A DNA stretch of 64,000 nucleotides from Eledone cirrhosa. Taxonomy: Eukaryota. The DNA lies in contig OZ024747.1 of assembly GCA_964016885.1 (NCBI GenBank), forward strand, positions 86,428,001 through 86,492,000. Direction: 5' to 3'. Below, one piece after another: positions 2,483 through 56,787 of this stretch. Below the pieces are notes generated by a model. That model was given only the letters and a program-made list of their open reading frames with translations, made no database searches and was not told the origin of the DNA. Within the stretch, counting starts at the first letter, position 1; each line of letters begins with the position of its first letter. The position numbers and the translations under genes were made by a program.

Positions 2483-3444
<962 letters not shown>

Positions 3445-24051: not shown

Positions 24052-26573
24052 GACAGTGGGAATTTCTGAAAGCAAACCTGCTGATGGCGACAGACGAAGT
24101 CTGTGGCTGGAGCAGGCCTGTAGGTAGGAGGAGAGTAACATGGTGGTGGAACAGTAGGGTGGAGGGGTCAATTAAGGCCAAAAAGCAGGCTTGGAAAGTA
24201 TGGCGGGATGGGGGAAGTAGAGAAGACTATCAAGTGGCCAGGAGGGAGGCTAGGAGACAAGTGTACTTTGCAAGAAGGGAAGCAGAGGAAAGAAAGTTCA
24301 AGCATATTCTACAACGCGAGGACCAAAAACGTGAGGTGTTCAGGATTGCTAGGCAATGTGTCAAGGAAAACCGTGATATTGTCGGGGAGAAGTGTGTACT
24401 TAATGATGACGGCGTACTTGCCATCACTGACGCTGATAAGAAGGTAGCTTGGAAGTGCCACTATGAAAGGCTACTAAATGAGGAGAATAAATGGGAGAAA
24501 GACAGTCTCCTCCACATCGACCCAATAGAGGGACCAGCAGTGTTAGTCGAGGGTAGTATAATAAGTAAGGCAATCAAGGATATGAAGACGGGTAAGGCGG
24601 CTGGGCCTTCGGAAATAGTTGCTGAGATGCTGAAGGCATCTGGCTCGGTGGGACACACCTTGGTCAACCGGATAGTTAACCAAGCCGTACAGAATGGGAT
24701 TGTTCCGAAGGACTGGCATAGCAGCATCATCGTTAACTGTTATAAGGGTAAAGGAGATGCCCTAGATAGGAGTAACTATAGAGGCATTAAACTAATCGAC
24801 CAGGTCATGAAGGTCACGGAAAAAGTAATAGCGCAACTAATCAGAGAGAGAATTGACCTAGATGAAATGCAGTTCGGGTTTGTGTCAGGAAAAAGTACCA
24901 CAGACGCTCTTTTCATTGTACGTCAACTACAGGAGAAGTACCTAGCTAAAGGTAAACCCCTCTACTTAGCTTTTGTCGACTTGGAGAAAGCCTTCGACAG
25001 AGTCCCCCGTTCCATTATCTGGTGGGCCCTTAGAAAACTAGGTGTCGACGAATGGCTTGTGAGAGCTATACAAGCCATGTATAAAGAAACAGTCAGCAAG
25101 GTTAGAATTAACAACGAATATAGTGAAGAGTTTAGCGTAAAAGTTGGCGTCCATCAGGGCTCTGTTCTCAGCCCCCTACTATTTATTATTGCCCTTCAGG
25201 CTATAACAGAGGAGTTCAAGACCGGCTGCCCATGGGAACTCCTATACGCAGACGACCTGACACTCATAGCTGAAACAATGGCCGAGCTAGAGAAGAAATT
25301 CCAAATATGGAAGCACGGCCTAGAATCAAAAGGCCTTAAAATTAACCTGGCTAAGACTAAAGTTCTAGTTTGTAGGAAAGAAAATAGGCGGCGGTCCCTT
25401 CCGGGAAATGGCCATGCTCAGTGTGTAGGAAAGGCGTAGGTAGAAACTCCATTTTATGTCCCAAATGCAAAGTATGGGTGCATAAAAGATGTAGTGGGAT
25501 CACAGGTAAGCTAACTAAGAACTTAGATTTTACATGTGGGCGGTGCTCTGGTGCAATAAGTAGCAGCGAGTGCCCACAAAATACTAACTCTTTCAATTGC
25601 GCAGGGGGCTCTATAGAAATAGTGGACAGCTTCCGTTACCTGGGTGACAAAATCAGCAGTGGGGGAGGGTGCTCCGAAAGTACAGTAGCTAGAGTCAGAA
25701 CTGGATGGAAAAAGTTCAGAGAGCTTATAACACTATTAGCCGCTAAATGGTTCTCCCTAAAAATGAAAGGCAGGTTGTATGATGCCTGCATACGAACAGC
25801 AATGTTGCATGGCAGTGAGACCTGGGCATTGTGCACAGAGGATATACGCAGACTAGAGAGGAACGAAGCTTGCATGCTCCGCTGGATGTGTAATAGTAAT
25901 ATACGTGAACGGCAAAGCATAAACGAACTAAGGAAAAAATTAGAAATAAGAGGGATCAGATGTTGTTTACTCGAGAGAAGGCTACGTTGGTACGGACACG
26001 TGATGCGCATGAAAGTCGATAGCTGTATAACAAAGTGCAGAGCAATAAAGATAGACGGTAGCCACGGAATAGGCAGACCTAGAAAATCCTGGGACGAGCT
26101 GATAAACTCCGACCTCACACACTTACACCTCTCCAAGACAATGTCACTGGACCGAGACCTTTGGCGGTACTCAGTAACAGAGAAGACTCGCCTTACCTAA
26201 ATACATAGTAAAACCTACTACAGCCAGTAGGCATCTCTAACAAAATACACCCCCGTCCCACCACCCACACCACCCCCTCCTATGTAAAGTTATGTTGGTG
26301 CCACAACATCCAGGCCGAAACAAATGAGATCGTGTAGGTGTCACGACAAAAAAACATACAGTCCACGCTGTAATGTGGCCGTGTAGGCAACACGGTAAAA
26401 ACCTCCCAGTCCCACACTGTACATGTGGTTGGTGTTAGGAAGGGCATCCAACTGTAGAAAACCTGCCAGACAGTCCTATGCGAGCAAGACAATCACTCTT
26501 GCCTCAAGTGGGAATACCCCCGTCCAAACCCATGCAAGCGTGGAACACGGACGTTAAACGTTGATGATGATGA
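24052..26573 (+). mobile_element. RTE LINE copy B, 5'-truncated, one frameshift
   Basis: ORFs 24084-25439 and 25421-26200 carry RT motifs (DLEKAFD, GVHQGSVLSP, YADD); 1-nt deletion at about 25386; 3' UTR ends in (GAT)n. Confidence 0.95.
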
Positions 26574-27287: not shown

Positions 27288-30215
27288 TCATCATCATCAT
27301 CATCATCAACGTTTAACGTCCGTGTTCCACACTTGCATGGGTTTGGACGGGGGTTTTCCCACTTGAGGCAAGAGTGATTGTCTTGCTCGCATAGGACTGT
27401 CAGGCAGGTTTTCTACAGTTGGATGCCCTTCCTAACACCAACCACATTTACAGTGTGGGTCTGGGAGGTTTTTACCGTGTTGCCTACACGGCCACATTAC
27501 AGCGTGTACTGTGTGTTTTTTTGTCGTGACACCTACACGATCTCATTTGTTTCGGCCTGGATGGTGTGGCACCAACATAACTTTACATAGAAGGGGAAGG
27601 TGTGGATGGGGTGGGGGTGGTGGGACGGGGGTGTATTTTGTTAGAGATGCCTACTGACTGTAGTAGGTTTTACTTTGTATTTAGGTAAGGCGGGTCTTCT
27701 CTATTACTGAGTACCGCCAAAGGTCTCGGTCTAGTGACATTGTCTTGGTGAGGTGTAAGTGTGTGAGGTCGGAGTTTATCAGCTCGTCCCAGGTTTTTCT
27801 GGGTCTGCCTATTCCGTGGCTACCGTCTATCTTTATTGCCCTGCACTTTGTTATACAGCTATTGACTTTCATGCGCATCACGTGTCCGTACCAACGTAGC
27901 CTTCTCTCTAGTAAACAACATCTGATCCCTCTTATTTCTAATTTTTTCCTTAGTTCGTTTATGCTTTGTCGTTCACGTATATTACTATTACACATCCAGC
28001 GGAGCATGCAAGCTTCGTTTCTCTCTAGTCTGCGTATATCCTCTGCACACAATGCCCAGGTCTCACTGCCATGCAACATTGCTGTTCGTATGCAGGCATC
28101 GTACAGCCTGCCTTTCATTTTTAGGGAGAACCCTTTAGCGGCTAATAGTGTTATAAGCTCTCTGAACCTTTTCCACCCAGTTCTGACTCTAGCTACTGTA
28201 CTTTCAGAGCACCCTCCCCCACTGCTGATTTTGTCACCCAGGTAACGGAAGCTGTCCACTATTTCTATAGAACCCTCTGCGCAGTTGAAAGAGCTAGTAT
28301 TTTGTGGGCACTTGCTGCTACTTATTGCCCCAGAACACCGGCCACATGTAAAATCTATGTTCTTAGTTAGCTTACCTGTGATCCCACTACATCTTTTATG
28401 CACCCAAACTTTGCATTTGGGACACAAAATGGAATTTCTACCTACGCCTTTCCTACACTCTGCGCATGGCCACTTCATGGAGGGGACCGCCGCCTTATTT
28501 TCTTTCTTACAAACTAGAACTTTAGTCTTAGCCAGGTTAATTTTAAGGCCTTTTGATTCTAGGCCGTGCTTCCATGTTTGGAATTTCTTCTCTAGCTCGG
28601 CCATTGATTCAGCAATGAGCGTTAGATCATCTGCGTATAGGAGTTCCCATGGGCAGCCGGTCTTGAACTCCACTGTTATAGCCTGGAGGGCAATAATAAA
28701 TAGTAGGGGGCTAAGAACAGAGCCCTGATGAACACCAACTTTTACACTAAACTCTTCACTATATTCGTTGTTAATTCTAACCTTGCTGACTGTTTCTTTA
28801 TACATGGCTTGTATAGCTCTCACAAGCCATTCATCAACACCTAGTTTTCTAAGAGCCTACCAGATAATGGAACGGGGGACTCTGTCGAAGGCCTTCTCCA
28901 AGTCGACAAAAGCTAAGTATAGGGGTTTACTTTTAGCTAGGTACTTCTCCTGTAGTTGTCGTACAATGAAAAGAGCGTCTGTGGTACTTTTTCCTGACAA
29001 AAACCCGAACTGCATTTCATCTAGATCAATTCGCTCTCTGATTAGTTGCGCTATTACTTTTTCCGTGACCTTCATGACCTGGTCGATTAATTTAATGCCT
29101 CTATAGTTACTCCTATCTAGGGCATCTCCTTTACCCTTATAACAGTTAACGATAATGCTGCTACACCAGTCCTTCGGAACAACCCCATTCTGTATGACTT
29201 GGTTGACTATCCGGGTGACCATGGTGTGTCCCACCGTACCAGATGCCTTCAGCATCTCGGCAACTATTTCCGAAGGCCCAGCCGCCTTGCCTGTCTTCAT
29301 ATCTTTGATTGCCTTACTTATTATACTACCCTCGACTAACACTGCTGGTCCCTCTATTGGGTCGATGTGGGGGAGACTGTCTTTCTCCCATTTATTCTCC
29401 TCATTTAGTAGCCTTTCATAGTGACACTTCCAAGCTACCTTCTTATCGGCGTTGGTGATAGCAAGTACGCCGTCATCGTTAAGTACACACTTCTCCCCGA
29501 CAATATCACTGTTTTCCTTGACACATTGCCTAGCAATCCTGAACACCTCACGTTTTTGGTCCTCACGTTGTAGAAAATGCTTGAACTTTCTTTCCTCTGC
29601 TTCCCTTCTTGCGAAGTACACTTGTCTCCTAGCTTCCCTCCTGGCCTCTTGATAGTCTTCTCTGCTTCCCCCATCCCGCCATACTTTCCAAGCCTGCTTT
29701 TTGGCCTTAATTGACCCCTCCACCTTACTGTTCCACCACCATGTTACTCTCCTCCTGCCTACAGGCCTGCTCCAGCCACAGACTTCGTCTGCCGCCGTCA
29801 GCAGGTTTGCTTTCAGGAATTCCCACTGTTCCTCTACCTTGTACGTCTCTAATTGCTCTTCCTCACTGTTGAAAGCATCAAGTAATATGCTTTGGAATTT
29901 ATTTTTGGCTGTGGGGTCCTTTAGCTTCCATATTTTTCTCCTGAGGATAGTCCTCTTCTGTTATCTAGTACGTCTCGTCCTGACTATTAGGTCGCTAATT
30001 ATCAGTCTATGTTGGGAAGTGCATTCTTCATGGGGGAGGGATTTAGTGTTTACGACAGTCACTTTGTCACATCTTCTGGTAAGGATATAATCTACCTGGC
30101 TAGTATGTTCCCCTGATCTGTAGGTGATCAAGTGATTGTCTCGTTTTTTGAAGTTAGTGTTGCAGATAGTTAGGTTATTTGCGTCGCAGAATTCCAGGAT
30201 TCTGGAGCCTTCCTC
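27288..30215 (-). mobile_element. RTE LINE copy C, 5'-truncated, nonsense mutations
   Basis: ORFs 28857-29723 and 27681-28823 are almost identical to copy E; TGG>TAG at 28857 and CAA>TAA near 29960; (GAT)n tail at 27288-27308. Confidence 0.95.
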
Positions 30216-30365: not shown

Positions 30366-30732
30366 TAGGCACCTCTAACAAAATACACCCCGTCCCACTA
30401 CCCCCACCCCATCCACACCGCCCCTTTCAATGTAAAGTTATGTTGGTACCACAACATCCAGGCCGAAACAAATGAGGTCGTGTAGCTGTCACGACAAAAA
30501 ACACACAGTCCACGCTGTAATGTGGCCGTGTAGGTAACACGGTAAAAACCTCCCAGCCCCACACTGTAAATGTGGTTGGTGTTACGAAGGGCATCCAGCC
30601 GTAGAAAACCCGCCAGACAGTCCTATGCGAGCAAGACAACCACTCTTGCCTCAAGTGGGAAAACTCCCGTCCAAACCCATGCAAGCGTGGAATACGGACG
30701 TTAAACGATAATGATGATGATGATGATGATGA
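30366..30732 (+). mobile_element. RTE 3' UTR-only insertion (copy D)
   Basis: Matches the 3' UTR of copy E (38713-39068), including the (GAT)n tail. Confidence 0.9.
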
Positions 30733-34614: not shown

Positions 34615-35340
34615 ACCGCGTTTGGCTTATGTCAGACACTGTGATCTCCGGGTGGACCAGCACTACCGTTGGTAGAGGTTGAAATTGCCAAAAGTCCATA
34701 TCAACATCGATGACCCTGGAATTCCCTGTCCTTCGTTTGTACTTTTATTTAAAAAAACAAATTTTTTAAGGTTTCCCCATAAAGATCTACAGTTTGAAGT
34801 TCAGAACTGGGAAGTGCTTTCTTTAAAGAGGGGTGAATGGAGAGCACATGTGAAGGAAGGCTGCATGAAAAATTGACCATGAATAACTTAAATCTCAGCT
34901 TCGAAAAGGCCACAGTATGAACATCAATAAGAACATAGGGAGCTGGATTTGTGAGGTGTATAGTCGTCTACAACTCTCTAAATCTGGCTACATCACTCAT
35001 TTAAAATCACATAAAAAGCCAACTGTATGCAGCTCTATCCCTCCCATACTAGGTGAGACAACATGTGTGGTGTGCAAAAAGATCTGCAAATCAATTTCTG
35101 GTCTTAAAAGGCATATGAGGTTACATAAGGATGACATCCCACAAACTGACGCAATCAATCTAATAGAGGGCACATCTTTTGTCTTTCACATTTGCTGCAG
35201 ACCGTGCAAATCTAATGCTGGACTTAAAAGCCACCAAACCACATGAACGGACATTTAGAGTTGGTGACGGTTGATGGGGGTGCATAGGGAGACGGCAATC
35301 ATCTGCAAAGATGAAGCAATCACCATGTATGTATGTATGT
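34615..35340 (+). mobile_element. 3' end of a second RTE/BovB-like LINE family with repeated C2H2-like zinc fingers
   Basis: NWEVLSLKRGEWRAHVKEG, then C..(Y)....SKSGYITHLKSH, CVVCKKICKSISGLKRHMRLH and HICCRPCKSNAGLKSH; ends in (ATGT)n. Confidence 0.65.
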
Positions 35341-35527
35341 GCATGTGTGTGTGTGTATCTATAAGTGTATGTGTGTATGTATGTGTGTGTGTGTATATGT
35401 GCCTATGCCAGTCAATTTACTCCATGCCTTTTTATATCGATAGTAAACAATATATCCCACAGCCTAGTGGTCAACATGTCTTCACAAATTCCTGCATATA
35501 TATAAATGAGTGATGTAGCCAGATTTA

Positions 35528-38500
35528 AAGACAATCACACCTCGTGGACGAGAATGCGAGCATGCCTCTTTGTTTCGGCCGCGGATGGCTAACATAACCC
35601 CATCTCCCCCCGCTCCCCACCTTTCCAACCCCCCAAACGCAATCCAAAACTTCAGATTTGGTACCTTGAATGTAGGCACCTTAAAGGGTCGCTCTAACGA
35701 GGTTGTAGAAATGCTTGAACGTAAGGAGGTCGATGTTTGTTGTATTCAAGAGACCAGGTGGAGGGGTGGATCTGCTAGATACATTGTGGGTAGAAAACGA
35801 TGCTATAAGCTTTTCTGGGTGGGAAACGACAATGGGCTGGGTGGAGTAGGAATCATGGTAGCAGAAAAGTGGGCAGATAAGATAATAGACGTAAATAGAG
35901 TGAACGACAGAATAATTAAAATAAGACTTGTCCTCAATAGAACTACGGTGACAGTAATATCCGCGTACGCACCCCAATCTGGACTGCCCAGCACTATAAA
36001 AGACAGATTCTATGAGACACTGATGCTCACTACCTCCCAAATAACCGACAGTGACTATATAATTATTGCAGGCGACCTAAACGGTCACGTTGGACAACAT
36101 TGTGACGGCTACGACGAAATCCATGGAGGCTATGGGTTTGGTACTAGAAATGAGGAAGGCTCCAGAATCCTGGAATTCTGCGACGCAAATAACCTAACTA
36201 TCTGCAACACTAACTTCAAAAAACGAGACAATCACTTGATCACCTACAGATCAGGGGAACATACTAGCCAGGTAGATTATATCCTTACCAGAAGACGTGA
36301 CAAAGTGACTGTCGTAAACACTAAATCCCTCCCCCATGAAGAATGCACTTCCCAACATAGACTGATAATTAGCGACCTAATAGTCAGGACGAAACGTACT
36401 AGACAACAGAAGAGGACTATCCTCAGGAGAAAAATATGGAAGCTAAAGGACCCCACAGCCAAAAATAAATTCCAAAGCATATTACTTGATGCTTTCGACA
36501 GTGAGGAAGAGCAATTAGAGACGTACAAGGTAGAGGAACAGTGGGAATTCCTGAAAGCAAACCTACTGACGGCGGCAGACGAAGTCTGTGGCTGGAGCAG
36601 GCCTGTAGGCAGGAGGAGAGTAACATGGTGGTGGAACAGTAAGGTGGAGGGGTCAATTAAGGCCAAAAAGCAGGCTTGGAAAGTATGGCGGGATGGGGGA
36701 AGCAGAGAAGACTATCAAGTGGCCAGGAGGGAAGCTAGGAGACAAGTGTACTTCGCAAGAAGGGAAGCAGAGGAAAGAAAGTTCAAGCATTTTCTACAAC
36801 GTGAGGACCAAAAACGTGAGGTGTTCAGGATTGCTAGGCAATGTGTCAAGGAAAACAGTGATATTGTCGGGGAGAAGTGTGTACTTAACGATGACGGCGT
36901 ACTTGCCATCACCGACGCCGATAAGAAGGTAGCTTGGAAGTGTCACTATGAAAGGCTACTAAATGAGGAGAATAAATGGGAGAAAGACAGTCTCCCCCAC
37001 ATCGACCCAATAGAGGGACCAGCAGTGTTAGTCGAGGGTAGTATAATAAGTAAGGCAATCAAAGATATGAAGACAGGCAAGGCGGCTGGGCCTTTGGAAA
37101 TAGTTGCCGAGATGCTGAAGGCATCTGGTACGGTGGGACACACCATGGTCACCCGGATAGTCAACCAAGTCATACAGAATGGGGTTGTTCCGAAGGACTG
37201 GCGTAGCAGCATTATCGTTAACTGTTATAAGGGTAAAGGAGATGCCCTAGATAGGAGTAACTATAGAGGCATTAAATTAATCGACCAGGTCATGAAGGTC
37301 ACGGAAAAAGTAATAGCGCAACTAATCAGAGAGCGAATTGATCTAGATGAAATGCAGTTCGGGTTTTTGTCAGGAAAAAGTACCACAGACGCTCTTTTCA
37401 TTGTACGACAACTACAGGAGAAGTACCTAGCTAAAAGTAAACCCCTATACTTAGCTTTCGTCGACTTGGAGAAGGCCTTCGACAGAGTCCCCCGTTCCAT
37501 TATCTGGTGGGCTCTTAGAAAACTAGGTGTTGATGAATGGCTTGTGAGAGCTATACAAGCCATGTATAAAGAAACAGTCAGCAAGGTTAGAATTAACAAC
37601 GAATATAGTGAAGAGTTTAGTGTAAAAGTTGGTGTTCATCAGGGCTCTGTTCTTAGCCCCTACTATTTATTATTGCCCTCCAGGCTATAACAGTGGAGTT
37701 CAAGACTGGCTGCCCACGGGAACTCCTATACGCAGATGATCTAACGCTCATAGCTGAATCAATGGCCGAGCTGGAGAAGAAATTCCAAACATGGAAGCAC
37801 GGCCTAGAATCAAAAGGCCTTAAAATTAACCTGGCTAAGACTAAAGTTCTAGTTTGTAAGAAAGAAAATAAGGCGGCGGTCCCCTCCGGGAAGTGGCCAT
37901 GCGCAGAGTGTAGGAAAGGCGTAGGTAGAAATTCCATTCTGTGTCCCAAATGCAAAGTTTGGGTGCATAAAAGATGTAGTGGGATCACAGGTAAGCTAAC
38001 TAAGAACATAGATTTTACATGTGGCCGGTGTTCTGGGGCAATAAGTAGCAGCAAGTGCCCACAAAATACTAGCTCTTTCAACTGCGCAGAGGGTTCTATA
38101 GAAATAGTGGACAGCTTCCGTTACCTGGGTGACAAAATCAGCAGTGGGGGAGAGTGCTCTGAAAGTACAGTAGCTAGAGTCAGAACTGGGTGGAAAAAGT
38201 TCAGAGAGCTTATACCACTATTAGCCGCTAAAGGGTTCTCCCTAAAAATGAAAGGCAGGCTGTACGATGCCTGCATACGAACAGCAATGTTGCATGGCAG
38301 TGAGACCTGGGCATTGTGTGCAGAGGATATACGCAGACTAGAGAGAAACGAAGCTTGCATGCTCCGCTGGATGTGTAATAGTAATATACGTGAACGACAA
38401 AGCATAAACGAACTAAGGAAAAAATTAGAAATAAGAGGGATCAGATGTTGTTTACTAGAGAGAAGGCTACGTTGGTATGGTCACGTGATGCGCATGAAGG

Positions 38501-39068
38501 ACGATAGCTGTATAACAAAGTGCAGGGCAATAAAGATAGACGGTAGCCACGGAATAGGCAGACCCAGAAAAACCTGGGACGAGCTGATAAACTCCAACCT
38601 CACACACTTACACCTCACCAAGACAATGTCACTGGACCGAGACCTTTGGCGGTACTCAGTAATAGAGAAGACCTGCCTTACCTAAATACAAAGTAAAACC
38701 TACTACAGTCAGTAGGCATCTCTAACAAAATACACCCCCCCCCCCCCATCCACACCTTCCCCTTCTATGTAAAGTTATGTTGGTGCCACACCATCCAGGC
38801 CGAAACAAATGAGATCGTGTAGGTGTCACGACAAAAAAACACACAGACCACGCTGTAATGTGGCCGTGTAGGCAACACGGTAAAAACCTCCCAGACCCAC
38901 ACTGTAAATGTGGTAGGTGTTAGGAAGGGCATCCAACTGTAGAAAACCTGCCAGACAGTCCAATGCGAGCAAGACAATCACTCTTGCCTCAAGTGGGAAA
39001 ACCCCCATCCAAACCCATGCAAGCGTGGAACACGGACGTTAAACGTTGATGATGATGATGATGATGAT
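35528..39068 (+). mobile_element. Near full-length RTE LINE (copy E)
   Basis: APE endonuclease (TLNVGTL, IQETRW, SAYAPQ, GDLNGHVG, QVDYIL, SQHRL), RT, 3' UTR and (GAT)n tail. The 5' boundary is approximate. Confidence 0.95.
35585..38685 (+). pseudogene. RTE APE-RT polyprotein (about 1033 aa) with an embedded PHD finger and a single 1-nt frameshift
   Basis: ORFs 35570-37690 and 37693-38685 join if one C is restored in the run at 37657-37660 (copies B and C have five C's). Confidence 0.9.
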
Positions 39069-45436: not shown

Positions 45437-46235
45437 CCTGTGGACTGAAATCGGAGACTGAAGGACTGATTATATCAGCACAAGATCAGTGTCTGCCAAC
45501 AAAAAATTACCAACCCAACATAATAAAAAATGGATGCAGCCCATTATGTAAAAAATAACCAGAGACTATTGATCATATAATTTCAATGTGCAGTCCTATA
45601 GCTCCAACCGAATACCTAAACAGGCATGACAGAGCTGCACAATACATAGGATAATGTGTAAGCATTTTGACCTGCCCCATTAAAAGAATTGGTGGGAGCA
45701 TCAACCACCTCCCATACTTGAAAAAGATCACATCTCAATCTTGTGGAACTTTAGCATCCAAACAGACTGAAAAATAGATGCAAATAGACCTGATATAATA
45801 CTGAAGGACTTTAAAAAGAGGGTATGCCTGCTAATTGATATGTCCGTTCCAATAGACAAGAATGTATCTATAAAAACATTTGAAAAATTGAGCAAGTATA
45901 AGGACCTGGAGATAGAAATTGGAAAAAATGTGGAAATTGAGAACTAAAACAATACCAGGCACTCTAGGAATGATACCTAAGGGGTCTAATGATTACTTAT
46001 CGCAAATCCCAGGAAACCCTTGTATAGGAGAAATACAAAAGATAGTACTAATGGGAACTGCCCATATACTAAGGAAGATTCTGTCAATATAAGTACATCA
46101 CAAGTCTAAACACCTAAAGATGCATGTGTGTGTATGTATGTTCCTTCTTGAACATGGCGGACCTTGTTGTCTCTTGAGGTCACTGGTTGTGACTTGGTGA
46201 TAACTCGTATGAACATAAAGCAAGATAAATGCAAC

Positions 46236-46237
<2 letters not shown>
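45437..46237 (+). mobile_element. R4/Dong LINE 3' fragment in (TAA)n
   Basis: ETEGLIISAQDQCL, ETIDHIISMC, RHD, RPDII and IQKIVLMGTAHILRK; bounded by TAA arrays. Confidence 0.85.
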
Positions 46238-46275
<38 letters not shown>

Positions 46276-46296
<21 letters not shown>

Positions 46297-48027
46297 TCAG
46301 ACAGTTGCTGGGCAGGAGTATGGGGTCCTGGGAGACAGAGTTGACATCAACTGGAGTATCCTTGGGAAGCGTGAAGATCAAGAGAGGTATCTTCCAGGGA
46401 GATAGCCTGTCCCCTCTGTTGTTTGTCCTTGCCCTGATGCCCTTGACCATTATGCTGCGAAAAGTGAGAGCAGGATACAAGTTGGGAAGGGGAGAGCTTA
46501 CCATCAATCACCTCCTCTTCATGGACGATCTTAAGCTCTTCGGGAAAAGTGAGGAGTTGGATGTGCTTGTTGACACTGTCCGTATTTTCAGCAGTGATAT
46601 ATGTATGCAGTTTGGTATTGGTAAATGTGGAGTCATTGTGATGAAGAGGGGTAGGTTGAGCAGAAGTAACGGGATCCAGATACCAACAGGTGAGATGATA
46701 AAGGAAATTGACTCTGAGGAAGGATACAAGTATTTGGGCGTTCTGGAGGCTGATGGCATAAAGAACAAAAAAATGAAGGAATTGTTAAGAACTGAATACA
46801 TTCGGAGAGTAAGGAGCGTATTGAAGTCACATCTGAACAGCAGAAATGCCATAAGCGCAGTAAATTCCCGAGCTGTGTCTATTATTAGGTACAGTGCGGG
46901 AATTCTGAGATGGAATGTTGCTGAACAAAAAGAAATGGATAGGAAGACTAGGAAGCTATTGACTATCTACAACATGTTCCACAAGAGGAGTGATGTCGAT
47001 AGACTCTACCTAAGGAGATCTGAGGGTGGAAGAGGTCTTATCAGCATAGAGGACTGTGTTCGGATGGAGAAAAACAACCTATACAAATACGTGACCTATA
47101 GTAAGGAGCCAATGCTCAGAACTGTACTGAAGGAGGGGACAGTAGGCCAGGGGATGTCCAAGGAGGAAGTAACATCAAGGAGGAAGAGCAGCCTTAAGGG
47201 AAAATCCCTTCATAGTACCTTCTTTGAGAAAACTGAATTTAGAGATCCACAGACATGGAACTGGTTGAGAAGAGGAGACCTCAAAAAGGCTACAGAAGGA
47301 ATGCTAATGGCTGCGCAGGAGCAGGCCCTCAAAATGAAGTGGTTGAAGCACCATATCTACAAGGAGGAGGCTAGCCCACTGTGCAGGATCTGTGGAGAGA
47401 GAGAGGAGACTGTGGCTCACATTGTGTCCGAGTGTAAACACCTAGCCCAGACCCACTATAAGGGCTGGAGACACGATGTGATGGGCAGGGTGATCCACTG
47501 GCACCTGTGCAAAGTAAACAATCTACCACATTCTGAGAAATGGTATGAGCATAGGCCAGAGGCGGTGATGGAGAACAGTCAGGTGAAGGTGCTGTGGGAT
47601 TTTAGGATACAGACGGACAAAAAACTGGAACACAATAGACCTGACCTGGTGGTTATGGACAAAGAAAAAAGATCGTGCCTGATTGTGGATGTGGCCTGCC
47701 CGTTCGACACGAGAGTGCAAGAGAAGGAGAGGGAGAAAATTAACCGATACCAGGACCTAAAGTGGGAGGTGAAAAGGATTTGGAACTGCCATGAAGTCAA
47801 AGTGATCCCGATTGTCATAGGCGCACTGGGGACTATCTCCAAAGGTTTCCAGGGATGGTTAAAGAAAATCGGCCCCTTCACGCTTTTTGGAACGCTTCAA
47901 AAGGCATGCTTGCTTGGAACAGCAAGAACCCTCCGATACGTCCTGAATATCTGAGGCTGCAGGTAGTGGCTTGATATTCAATCCAACGGACTTTCCAGTT
48001 AACCAACATCAATGACTGAGATTCAAG
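46276..48027 (+). mobile_element. R4/Dong LINE, 5'-truncated, uninterrupted RT-CCHC-RLE frame (stop at 47954)
   Basis: GIFQGDSLSP, HLLFMDD, CRIC..REETVAHIVSEC, RHD, NRPDLVV and IVDVACP; inserted in (TAA)n, the known Dong target. Confidence 0.92.
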
Positions 48028-56513: not shown

Positions 56514-56787
56514 TCCAGTCCGAAGCAAATGAGATTGTGTAGGTGTCACGACAAAAGAACACACAGTCCACGCTGTAATATGGCCATGTAGGCAACACGG
56601 TAAAAACCTCCCAGTCCCACACTAAATGTGGTTGGTGTTAGGAAGGGCATCCAGCTGTAGAAAACCCACCAGACAGTCCTATGCGAGCAAGACAACCACT
56701 CTTGCCTCAAGTGGGAAAACTCCTGTCCAAACCCATGCAAGCGTGGAACATGGACGTTAAACGATGATGATGATGATGATGATGATA
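56514..56787 (+). mobile_element. RTE 3' UTR stub
   Basis: Matches 38793-39068 and ends in (GAT)n. Confidence 0.9.

What the first reader, a model, noticed from the sequence alone, without database searches (positions are those of the whole stretch)
35566..38813. RTE start-codon region is complementary to its own 3' UTR (about 31-bp panhandle)
Seen: 5' segment CTC-TTTGTTTCGGCC-gc-GGATGG-CTAACATAAC (35566-35598, containing the ATG at 35585) pairs with 3' UTR segment GTTATGTTGG-tgccaca-CCATCC-a-GGCCGAAACAAA-t-GAG (38774-38813). That gives helices of 3+12+6+10 bp with one G-U pair and small bulges. The 3' block is retained in copies B, C and D, partly deleted in copy A, and the 56514 stub is truncated inside it. 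Inference: long-range end-to-end pairing, like viral cyclisation sequences, that hides the AUG and could switch the RNA between translation and reverse transcription or favour full-length templates. I do not know of this being described for RTE LINEs.
Basis: partly seen in the sequence, partly recalled or inferred. Interest (0 to 1): 0.72.

Follow-up and report, generated by a model that had tools for sequence, protein, structure and literature searches.

The report
Likely chance end-pairing in RTE LINE
A young jumping gene carries two stretches 3.2 kb apart that are complementary over 31 bases, but the AUG they cover is not the start codon and sister lineages have lost parts of the match while still spreading, so the match is more likely a coincidence than a working RNA switch.

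Summary
The complementarity is real and family-wide: both arms occur in 19 of 20 long copies. The window copy is 5'-truncated. Longer copies have an in-frame ATG 69 nt upstream, so the 5' arm is coding. The youngest sister subfamily (666 motif matches) reads ACG at 35585 and still has intact 1056-aa frames. The 3' arm is a decayed copy of a 3' UTR tandem unit, not an inverted capture. Across eight subfamilies the predicted duplex ranges from -24 to -44 kcal/mol. For selection: two compensatory pairs (p about 0.03), one re-pairing in a new register (p 0.05-0.09) and an A-to-G excess (p 0.01-0.07). Against: whole-element shuffles reach the score in 4-63% of runs, the arms vary as much as their flanks, energy changes match neutral simulations (P 0.22-0.44), two prolific subfamilies lost pairs, and stronger pairing does not go with more full-length copies. 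Verdict: incidental match 0.55, weakly selected clasp 0.33. The scan earlier noted end pairings in other LINEs on other DNA (unchecked AI notes). Eight literature searches found none described for RTE.

The parts
35524..39068 (+). 5'-truncated copy of a young RTE-type LINE (subfamily M here), ending in a (GAT)n tail
   Evidence: shared sequence begins near 35524; family copies extend more than 1 kb further 5'
35566..35598 (+). 5' arm of the complementarity; coding sequence of the N-terminal extension (reads SLFRPRMANIT)
35585..35587 (+). internal ATG; AAA in an older family and ACG in the youngest subfamily; the likely start ATG lies 69 nt upstream and is lost in this copy
35585..38685 (+). 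remaining ORF (endonuclease, reverse transcriptase, PHD-like segment), broken by a frameshift near 37660
38774..38813 (+). 3' arm; a degenerate copy of the roughly 49-nt tandem hairpin unit that builds the 3' UTR
38814..38934 (+). further tandem hairpin units ending in a motif that an older RTE family of this genome carries in its 5' leader
26289..26328 (+). 3' arm in a 5'-truncated copy (one pair fewer)
27542..27581 (-). 3' arm in a 5'-truncated copy, identical to the main one
30437..30476 (+). 3' arm in a short copy, older bulge type
2864..2903 (-). 3' arm partly deleted in a sister-subfamily copy
56514..56533 (+). stub truncated inside the 3' arm

Best explanation
The two stretches are complementary, and this is most likely an incidental match that arose by ordinary point changes in one RTE lineage and does little or no work. 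Shown: the 5' arm descends codon for codon from N-terminal coding sequence; the 3' arm descends from a tandem 3' UTR unit; the match grew one base at a time and peaked in the subfamily where it was noticed. Inferred: the duplex may form part of the time, but the element does not need it, because subfamilies that lost 5 to 7 of the 31 pairs, or the AUG, went on to make hundreds to thousands of copies.
For: A match this good arises in 4-9% of whole-element shuffles under the two schemes that favour it and in about 60% under the other two. The arms vary as much as their flanks across seven subfamilies: 8 of 33 columns against 17 of 70 and 18 of 60; 8 of 40 against 28 of 105 and 27 of 240. Duplex energy after the observed number of changes is within neutral simulations: M to O1 P 0.34-0.44, M to S 0.23-0.30, whole N lineage 0.22-0.31. 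Subfamily X (1535 matches) lost 5 nt of the outer helix in 13 of 14 linked copies. N broke two pairs from the 5' side before any 3' change (4 of 19 linked copies). The older family shows no such duplex (best -22.9 against -40.2). The 4029-nt minimum-energy fold of one intact copy lacks the duplex.
Against: The 12-bp helix is the longest of 65 helices and holds 2 of the 6 compensatory pairs among 483; my arithmetic from the other 4 in 471 gives p about 0.03 for 30 pairs, and analytic estimates span 0.005-0.08. After N lost the middle helix, two A-to-G changes in the 3' bulge made a new 5-bp G-C helix (P 0.05-0.09). A-to-G makes up 6 of 14 arm changes against 42 of 295 elsewhere (p 0.009). Local co-folds form the duplex in M copies (27-31 expected pairs).
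Confidence: 0.55

Rival explanations
1. A weakly selected long-range clasp. The start of the coding region would pair with the first 3' UTR unit when ribosomes are absent, competing with the local 3' hairpin, and would bring the ends together for protein loading or priming. Elongating ribosomes would open it. It would tune activity and not be required.
For: Two compensatory pairs and the longest helix. Re-pairing in a new register in N, followed by a change in the base left unpaired. Private changes in S (U-G to C-G) and X (G-U to A-U) improve pairs. The three young subfamilies keep -35 to -44 kcal/mol. The 3' arm has a competing local fold.
Against: No excess conservation, neutral energy paths, a C-U mismatch that lasted from O3 to S, losses in X, O2 and N. 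With 150-nt flanks the co-fold drops to 0-0.1 pairs for N copies and 0-4 pairs for majorities older than M. The rise towards M is expected from where it was found.
Confidence: 0.33
2. An editing ratchet. The duplex would form often enough for ADAR to edit adenosines at A-C mismatches, and reverse transcription would fix these as G-C pairs, so the match would improve without selection. The lead came from earlier scan notes on edited RTE copies.
For: 6 of 14 arm changes are A-to-G (p 0.009); four turn an A-C mismatch into G-C and two lie in bulges. Copies with the 3' C but still the 5' A exist (L235, L328, L331, L337).
Against: Random window pairs reach 6 such changes in 1.5% (whole element) to 6.7% (flanks) of draws. 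Copy-level A-to-G is not raised in the 5' arm (2 of 608), though many copies were picked by arm patterns. The 3' gains T-to-G, A-to-C and T-to-C are not edits. The test was chosen after seeing the changes.
Confidence: 0.08
3. One reading: the duplex hides the start codon and switches the RNA from translation to reverse transcription, favouring full-length templates.
For: The ATG at 35585 lies inside the middle helix and is the first ATG left in this copy.
Against: Upstream in-frame ATG in 7 of 7 majorities across frame-keeping indels. ACG in the youngest subfamily, with 1056-aa frames in 3 of 6 copies, and in contigs of two other organisms. Linked 5' ends are commoner for the weaker type (12 of 50 against 9 of 100).
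Confidence: 0.02
4. One arm is an inverted copy of the other, captured by a template switch in an ancestral element and decaying since.
For: O1 already shows a 28-29-pair match, and no intermediate between the older family and X/O1 was sampled.
Against: Both arms align without inversion to older, non-complementary homologues. The match grows with time, and a 1-nt bulge persists between sites corrected in separate steps.
Confidence: 0.02

Closest known systems
Ty1 CYC5/CYC3 genome cyclization (PMC3592414, passages read)
   Same: Long-range pairing between a stretch near the 5' end and one near the 3' end of a retrotransposon RNA.
   Different: Ty1 is an LTR element, the pairing lies next to the tRNA primer site, is seen in particles and is stated to be required for reverse transcription. 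Here there is no primer site, no probing, and subfamilies lose pairs.
RTE-clade LINEs and bipartite RTE-derived SINEs (Kojima 2018, PMC5786205; parts 1-4 of 5 read, supplement not opened)
   Same: Single endonuclease-RT frame, microsatellite tail; a leader-type block reused elsewhere; one internally deleted copy keeps both ends (L289).
   Different: The text I read proposes no 5'-3' pairing, and its retained 5' pieces are UTR domains. The 5' arm here is coding and limited to one lineage.
RTE-2_OV of Octopus vulgaris (PMC9115989, passages read)
   Same: Young RTE element of a cephalopod with a full-length frame. The host here is inferred to be an octopus from recall and earlier scan notes.
   Different: RTE-2_OV has a 1109-aa frame and a microsatellite directly after it; this family has 1056 aa and a 367-nt structured 3' UTR. 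Sequences were not compared.
HDV-like 5' ribozymes of non-LTR elements (review PMC6765202, passages read; the primary paper was not available)
   Same: RNA structure near the start of a LINE frame proposed to act on translation.
   Different: No Rfam ribozyme match in the window copy or six 5' loci; this pairing is long-range and inside the frame.

Membership tests
RTE-clade LINE | single frame with AP endonuclease and reverse transcriptase | tested here: met
   Pfam PF03372, PF14529, PF00078; 1033-1056-aa frames in intact copies
RTE-clade LINE | 3' microsatellite tail and frequent 5' truncation | tested here: met
   (GAT)n tail and truncated copies
RTE-clade LINE | RT phylogeny places it among reference RTE elements | not tested
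Genome cyclization element (Ty1 CYC type) | complementary 5' and 3' stretches on one RNA | tested here: met
Genome cyclization element (Ty1 CYC type) | pairing kept by conservation or covariation across relatives | tested here: inconclusive
   2 compensatory pairs but no excess conservation and several uncompensated losses; absent in the older family
Genome cyclization element (Ty1 CYC type) | duplex forms in full-length RNA | tested here: inconclusive
   absent from one whole-RNA minimum-energy fold; present in local co-folds of M, dependent on flank length for N
Genome cyclization element (Ty1 CYC type) | required for reverse transcription or transposition | not testable with these tools
   needs a reporter assay; the spread of X and N argues against a strict need
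Start-codon-occluding RNA switch | the paired AUG is the initiation codon | tested here: not met
HDV-like 5' ribozyme | nested double pseudoknot at the 5' end | tested here: inconclusive
   no Rfam match; the true 5' end was not reached

The most novel reading that the evidence does not exclude
An RTE LINE RNA closes into a loop through a duplex between its first coding bases and its 3' UTR, and the duplex can be watched being built, broken and re-registered over eight subfamilies, with host ADAR editing at A-C mismatches writing part of the compensatory changes into the element.
Probability: 0.15. Interest if true: 0.8.

Novelty: new member of a known kind. Interest (0 to 1): 0.3.

Why it matters
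If functional, it would extend genome cyclization from LTR elements and viruses to RTE LINEs and offer a natural series of intact, pair-broken and re-paired variants (M, early N, young N) for a reporter test. If incidental, as is more likely, it shows that a 31-bp end match in one LINE copy can look convincing and still fail on start-codon identity, conservation and full-length bias. That is a useful control for similar claims on other LINEs.

Tried and rejected
Ribozyme or known RNA family: only microsatellite-driven matches far below cut-off. A predicted compensatory sister 5' arm ending in GAC after the G variant: 5 matches only, 2 of them RTE 5' ends, not a subfamily. A degenerate endonuclease pattern gave 1 match and a 3' UTR query gave none; neither is informative. 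A second conserved clasp between the longer leader and the 3' UTR: only 8-bp A/T-rich matches in one copy and none in the older family. A splice-acceptor reading of the older 5' arm was set aside because the frame runs through it. My first estimate from genome totals suggested more full-length copies for the strong duplex; coordinate linkage reversed it. Sequencing runs: no RNA holder listed; two of four runs gave no 5' contig. No homolog, structure or complex jobs were run. Rows left out: 13 of 86 long copies without a 3' arm; L237 from the front tree and recombinant L452.

Full report
Observation. The status of the 3' arm in the five other window copies is as stated. With the query fixed, 0 of 500 shuffled UTRs do as well. 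When the best match may lie anywhere upstream, shuffles reach the score in 6, 91, 95 and 13 of 150 runs under four schemes. The match is the best in the element but only marginally beyond chance.

The element. It is a LINE with endonuclease and RT domains and a (GAT)n tail. The window copy is cut near 35524; relatives continue more than 1 kb upstream. The 5' region has 2704 first-look candidates in the genome. Of 20 long copies fetched, all have the 5' arm and 19 the 3' arm, so the 5' arm is not a capture unique to this insertion.

The ATG is internal. Longer copies carry an in-frame ATG 23-26 codons upstream in 7 of 7 subfamily majorities, across frame-keeping indels; 6 of the 7 run on in frame into the endonuclease, and the 3-copy O4 majority slips in a C-rich tract. 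An older family aligns codon for codon and has AAA at this place. Contigs of two other organisms show ATG to ACG. In this genome that variant marks subfamily N: 666 pattern matches, against 595 for the window's type. N is the youngest (mean pairwise distance 0.6% against 1.1% for M), and 3 of 6 copies tested have an intact 1056-aa frame from the upstream ATG. The AUG-hiding model therefore fails.

Origin of the arms. The 3' UTR of older families is an array of roughly 49-nt hairpin units, and the 3' arm is a decayed first unit. The 5' arm descends from coding sequence. Neither is an inverted copy of the other in any sampled stage, though no stage between the older family and X/O1 was found.

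History. From 73 of 86 long copies with both arms, plus X, N and outgroup copies, trees built without the arms give a ladder: older family, X, O1, O2 (side), O3, O4, S (side), then M and N; several nodes are weakly supported and some copies are recombinant. Cognate duplex energies are X -23.9, O1 -27.1, O2 -23.9, O3 -26.8, O4 -36.3, S -40.5, M -44.2, early N -32.8 and young N -34.8. Changes came one at a time and the bulges persisted. Because the match was noticed in M, a rise towards M is expected even without selection, so only double changes and side branches count.

For selection. Two pairs changed on both sides (A-U to G-C; A-U through C-U to C-G). The 12-bp helix is the longest of 65 helices of 7 bp or more between the front 1.1 kb and back 1.3 kb and holds 2 of 6 compensatory pairs in 483; from the other 4 in 471, I get p about 0.03 for 30 pairs, and analytic estimates span 0.005-0.08. 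In N, 4 of 19 linked copies have two broken pairs with the old 3' arm, and 15 of 19 have two A-to-G changes in the bulge that form a new 5-bp helix; neutral simulation gives P 0.05-0.09 and the gain is 2 kcal/mol. A-to-G is 6 of 14 arm changes against 42 of 295 (p 0.009); window controls give 1.5-6.7%.

Against selection. The arms vary as much as their flanks. Energy after the observed number of changes is ordinary: P 0.34-0.44, 0.23-0.30 and 0.22-0.31. X has 1535 matches, lacks 5 nt of the outer helix in 13 of 14 linked copies and changed the partner in 28 of 30 5' ends. The older family has no comparable duplex. The whole-RNA minimum-energy fold of one intact M copy lacks the duplex; local co-folds form it in M, but not in N with 150-nt flanks, and the interaction energy of this window (-22.1) lies inside the range of 12 control windows (-7.7 to -37.1). 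On the first listed places of one contig, linked 5' ends number 12 of 50 for the young N 3' type, 9 of 100 for the window's type and 4 of 50 for a third type; these are exact-match lists over different spans, so the comparison is rough. In the laid runs no 3' arm change was listed at 15% share; linkage there is not shown.

Mechanism. I commit to incidental complementarity (0.55). A weakly selected clasp that ribosomes would open (0.33) and an editing ratchet (0.08) remain open. Shown: sequence, ancestry, order of changes, internal ATG. Inferred: whether the duplex forms and what it does.

Literature. Searches listed no report of 5'-3' pairing in RTE elements; most subscription papers are not held. 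Seen: PMC5786205 parts 1-4 of 5, supplement not opened and could bear on shared RTE motifs; passages of PMC3592414, PMC9115989, PMC6765202 and PMC13282606. The RTE label, the leader-type motif and the octopus host rest partly on recall and on earlier scan notes. Earlier scan notes report end pairings in Rex1, L1 and RTE elements of other genomes; they are unchecked and were used as leads only.

Noticed in passing
L289 (G000:C1:101963224-101966245, minus strand): Internally deleted copy that keeps the 5' leader, most of the 5' arm and the 3' UTR, with the two arms about 110 nt apart. One copy only; no family search made.
   Followed up: partly
L470, L472, L009, L014 upstream of the ORF: Direct repeats of roughly 500 nt in the 5' leader, consistent with a monomer array.
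   Followed up: partly
window 35528-35538 and 35554-35562 versus 38963-38981: An 11-mer and a 9-mer occur as direct repeats in both the 5' region and the 3' UTR, in swapped order; sister S differs at both places. A second coincidence of similar size, not tested.
   Followed up: no
window 34975-35003 and 35503-35531: 29-bp inverted repeat whose right arm overlaps the 5' junction of the copy.
   Followed up: no
window about 37900-38031: PHD-finger-like segment after the RT domain, below Pfam cut-offs.
   Followed up: no
window 38923-38934; L052-L070: A motif found in the 5' leader of an older RTE family sits in the 3' UTR of this lineage, behind tandem hairpin units.
   Followed up: partly
L091-L120, L052-L070: Older families have a pyrimidine tract ending in CAG at or near the 5' arm, like a splice acceptor; it becomes CGG in younger subfamilies.
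   Followed up: partly
L232, L452, L328, L164, L034: Copies whose 5' and 3' parts come from different subfamilies, pointing to recombination or template switching.
   Followed up: partly
window 46209-47954: A 581-aa frame of another LINE type with RT-like and C-terminal nuclease-like motifs (motif reading recalled).
   Followed up: no
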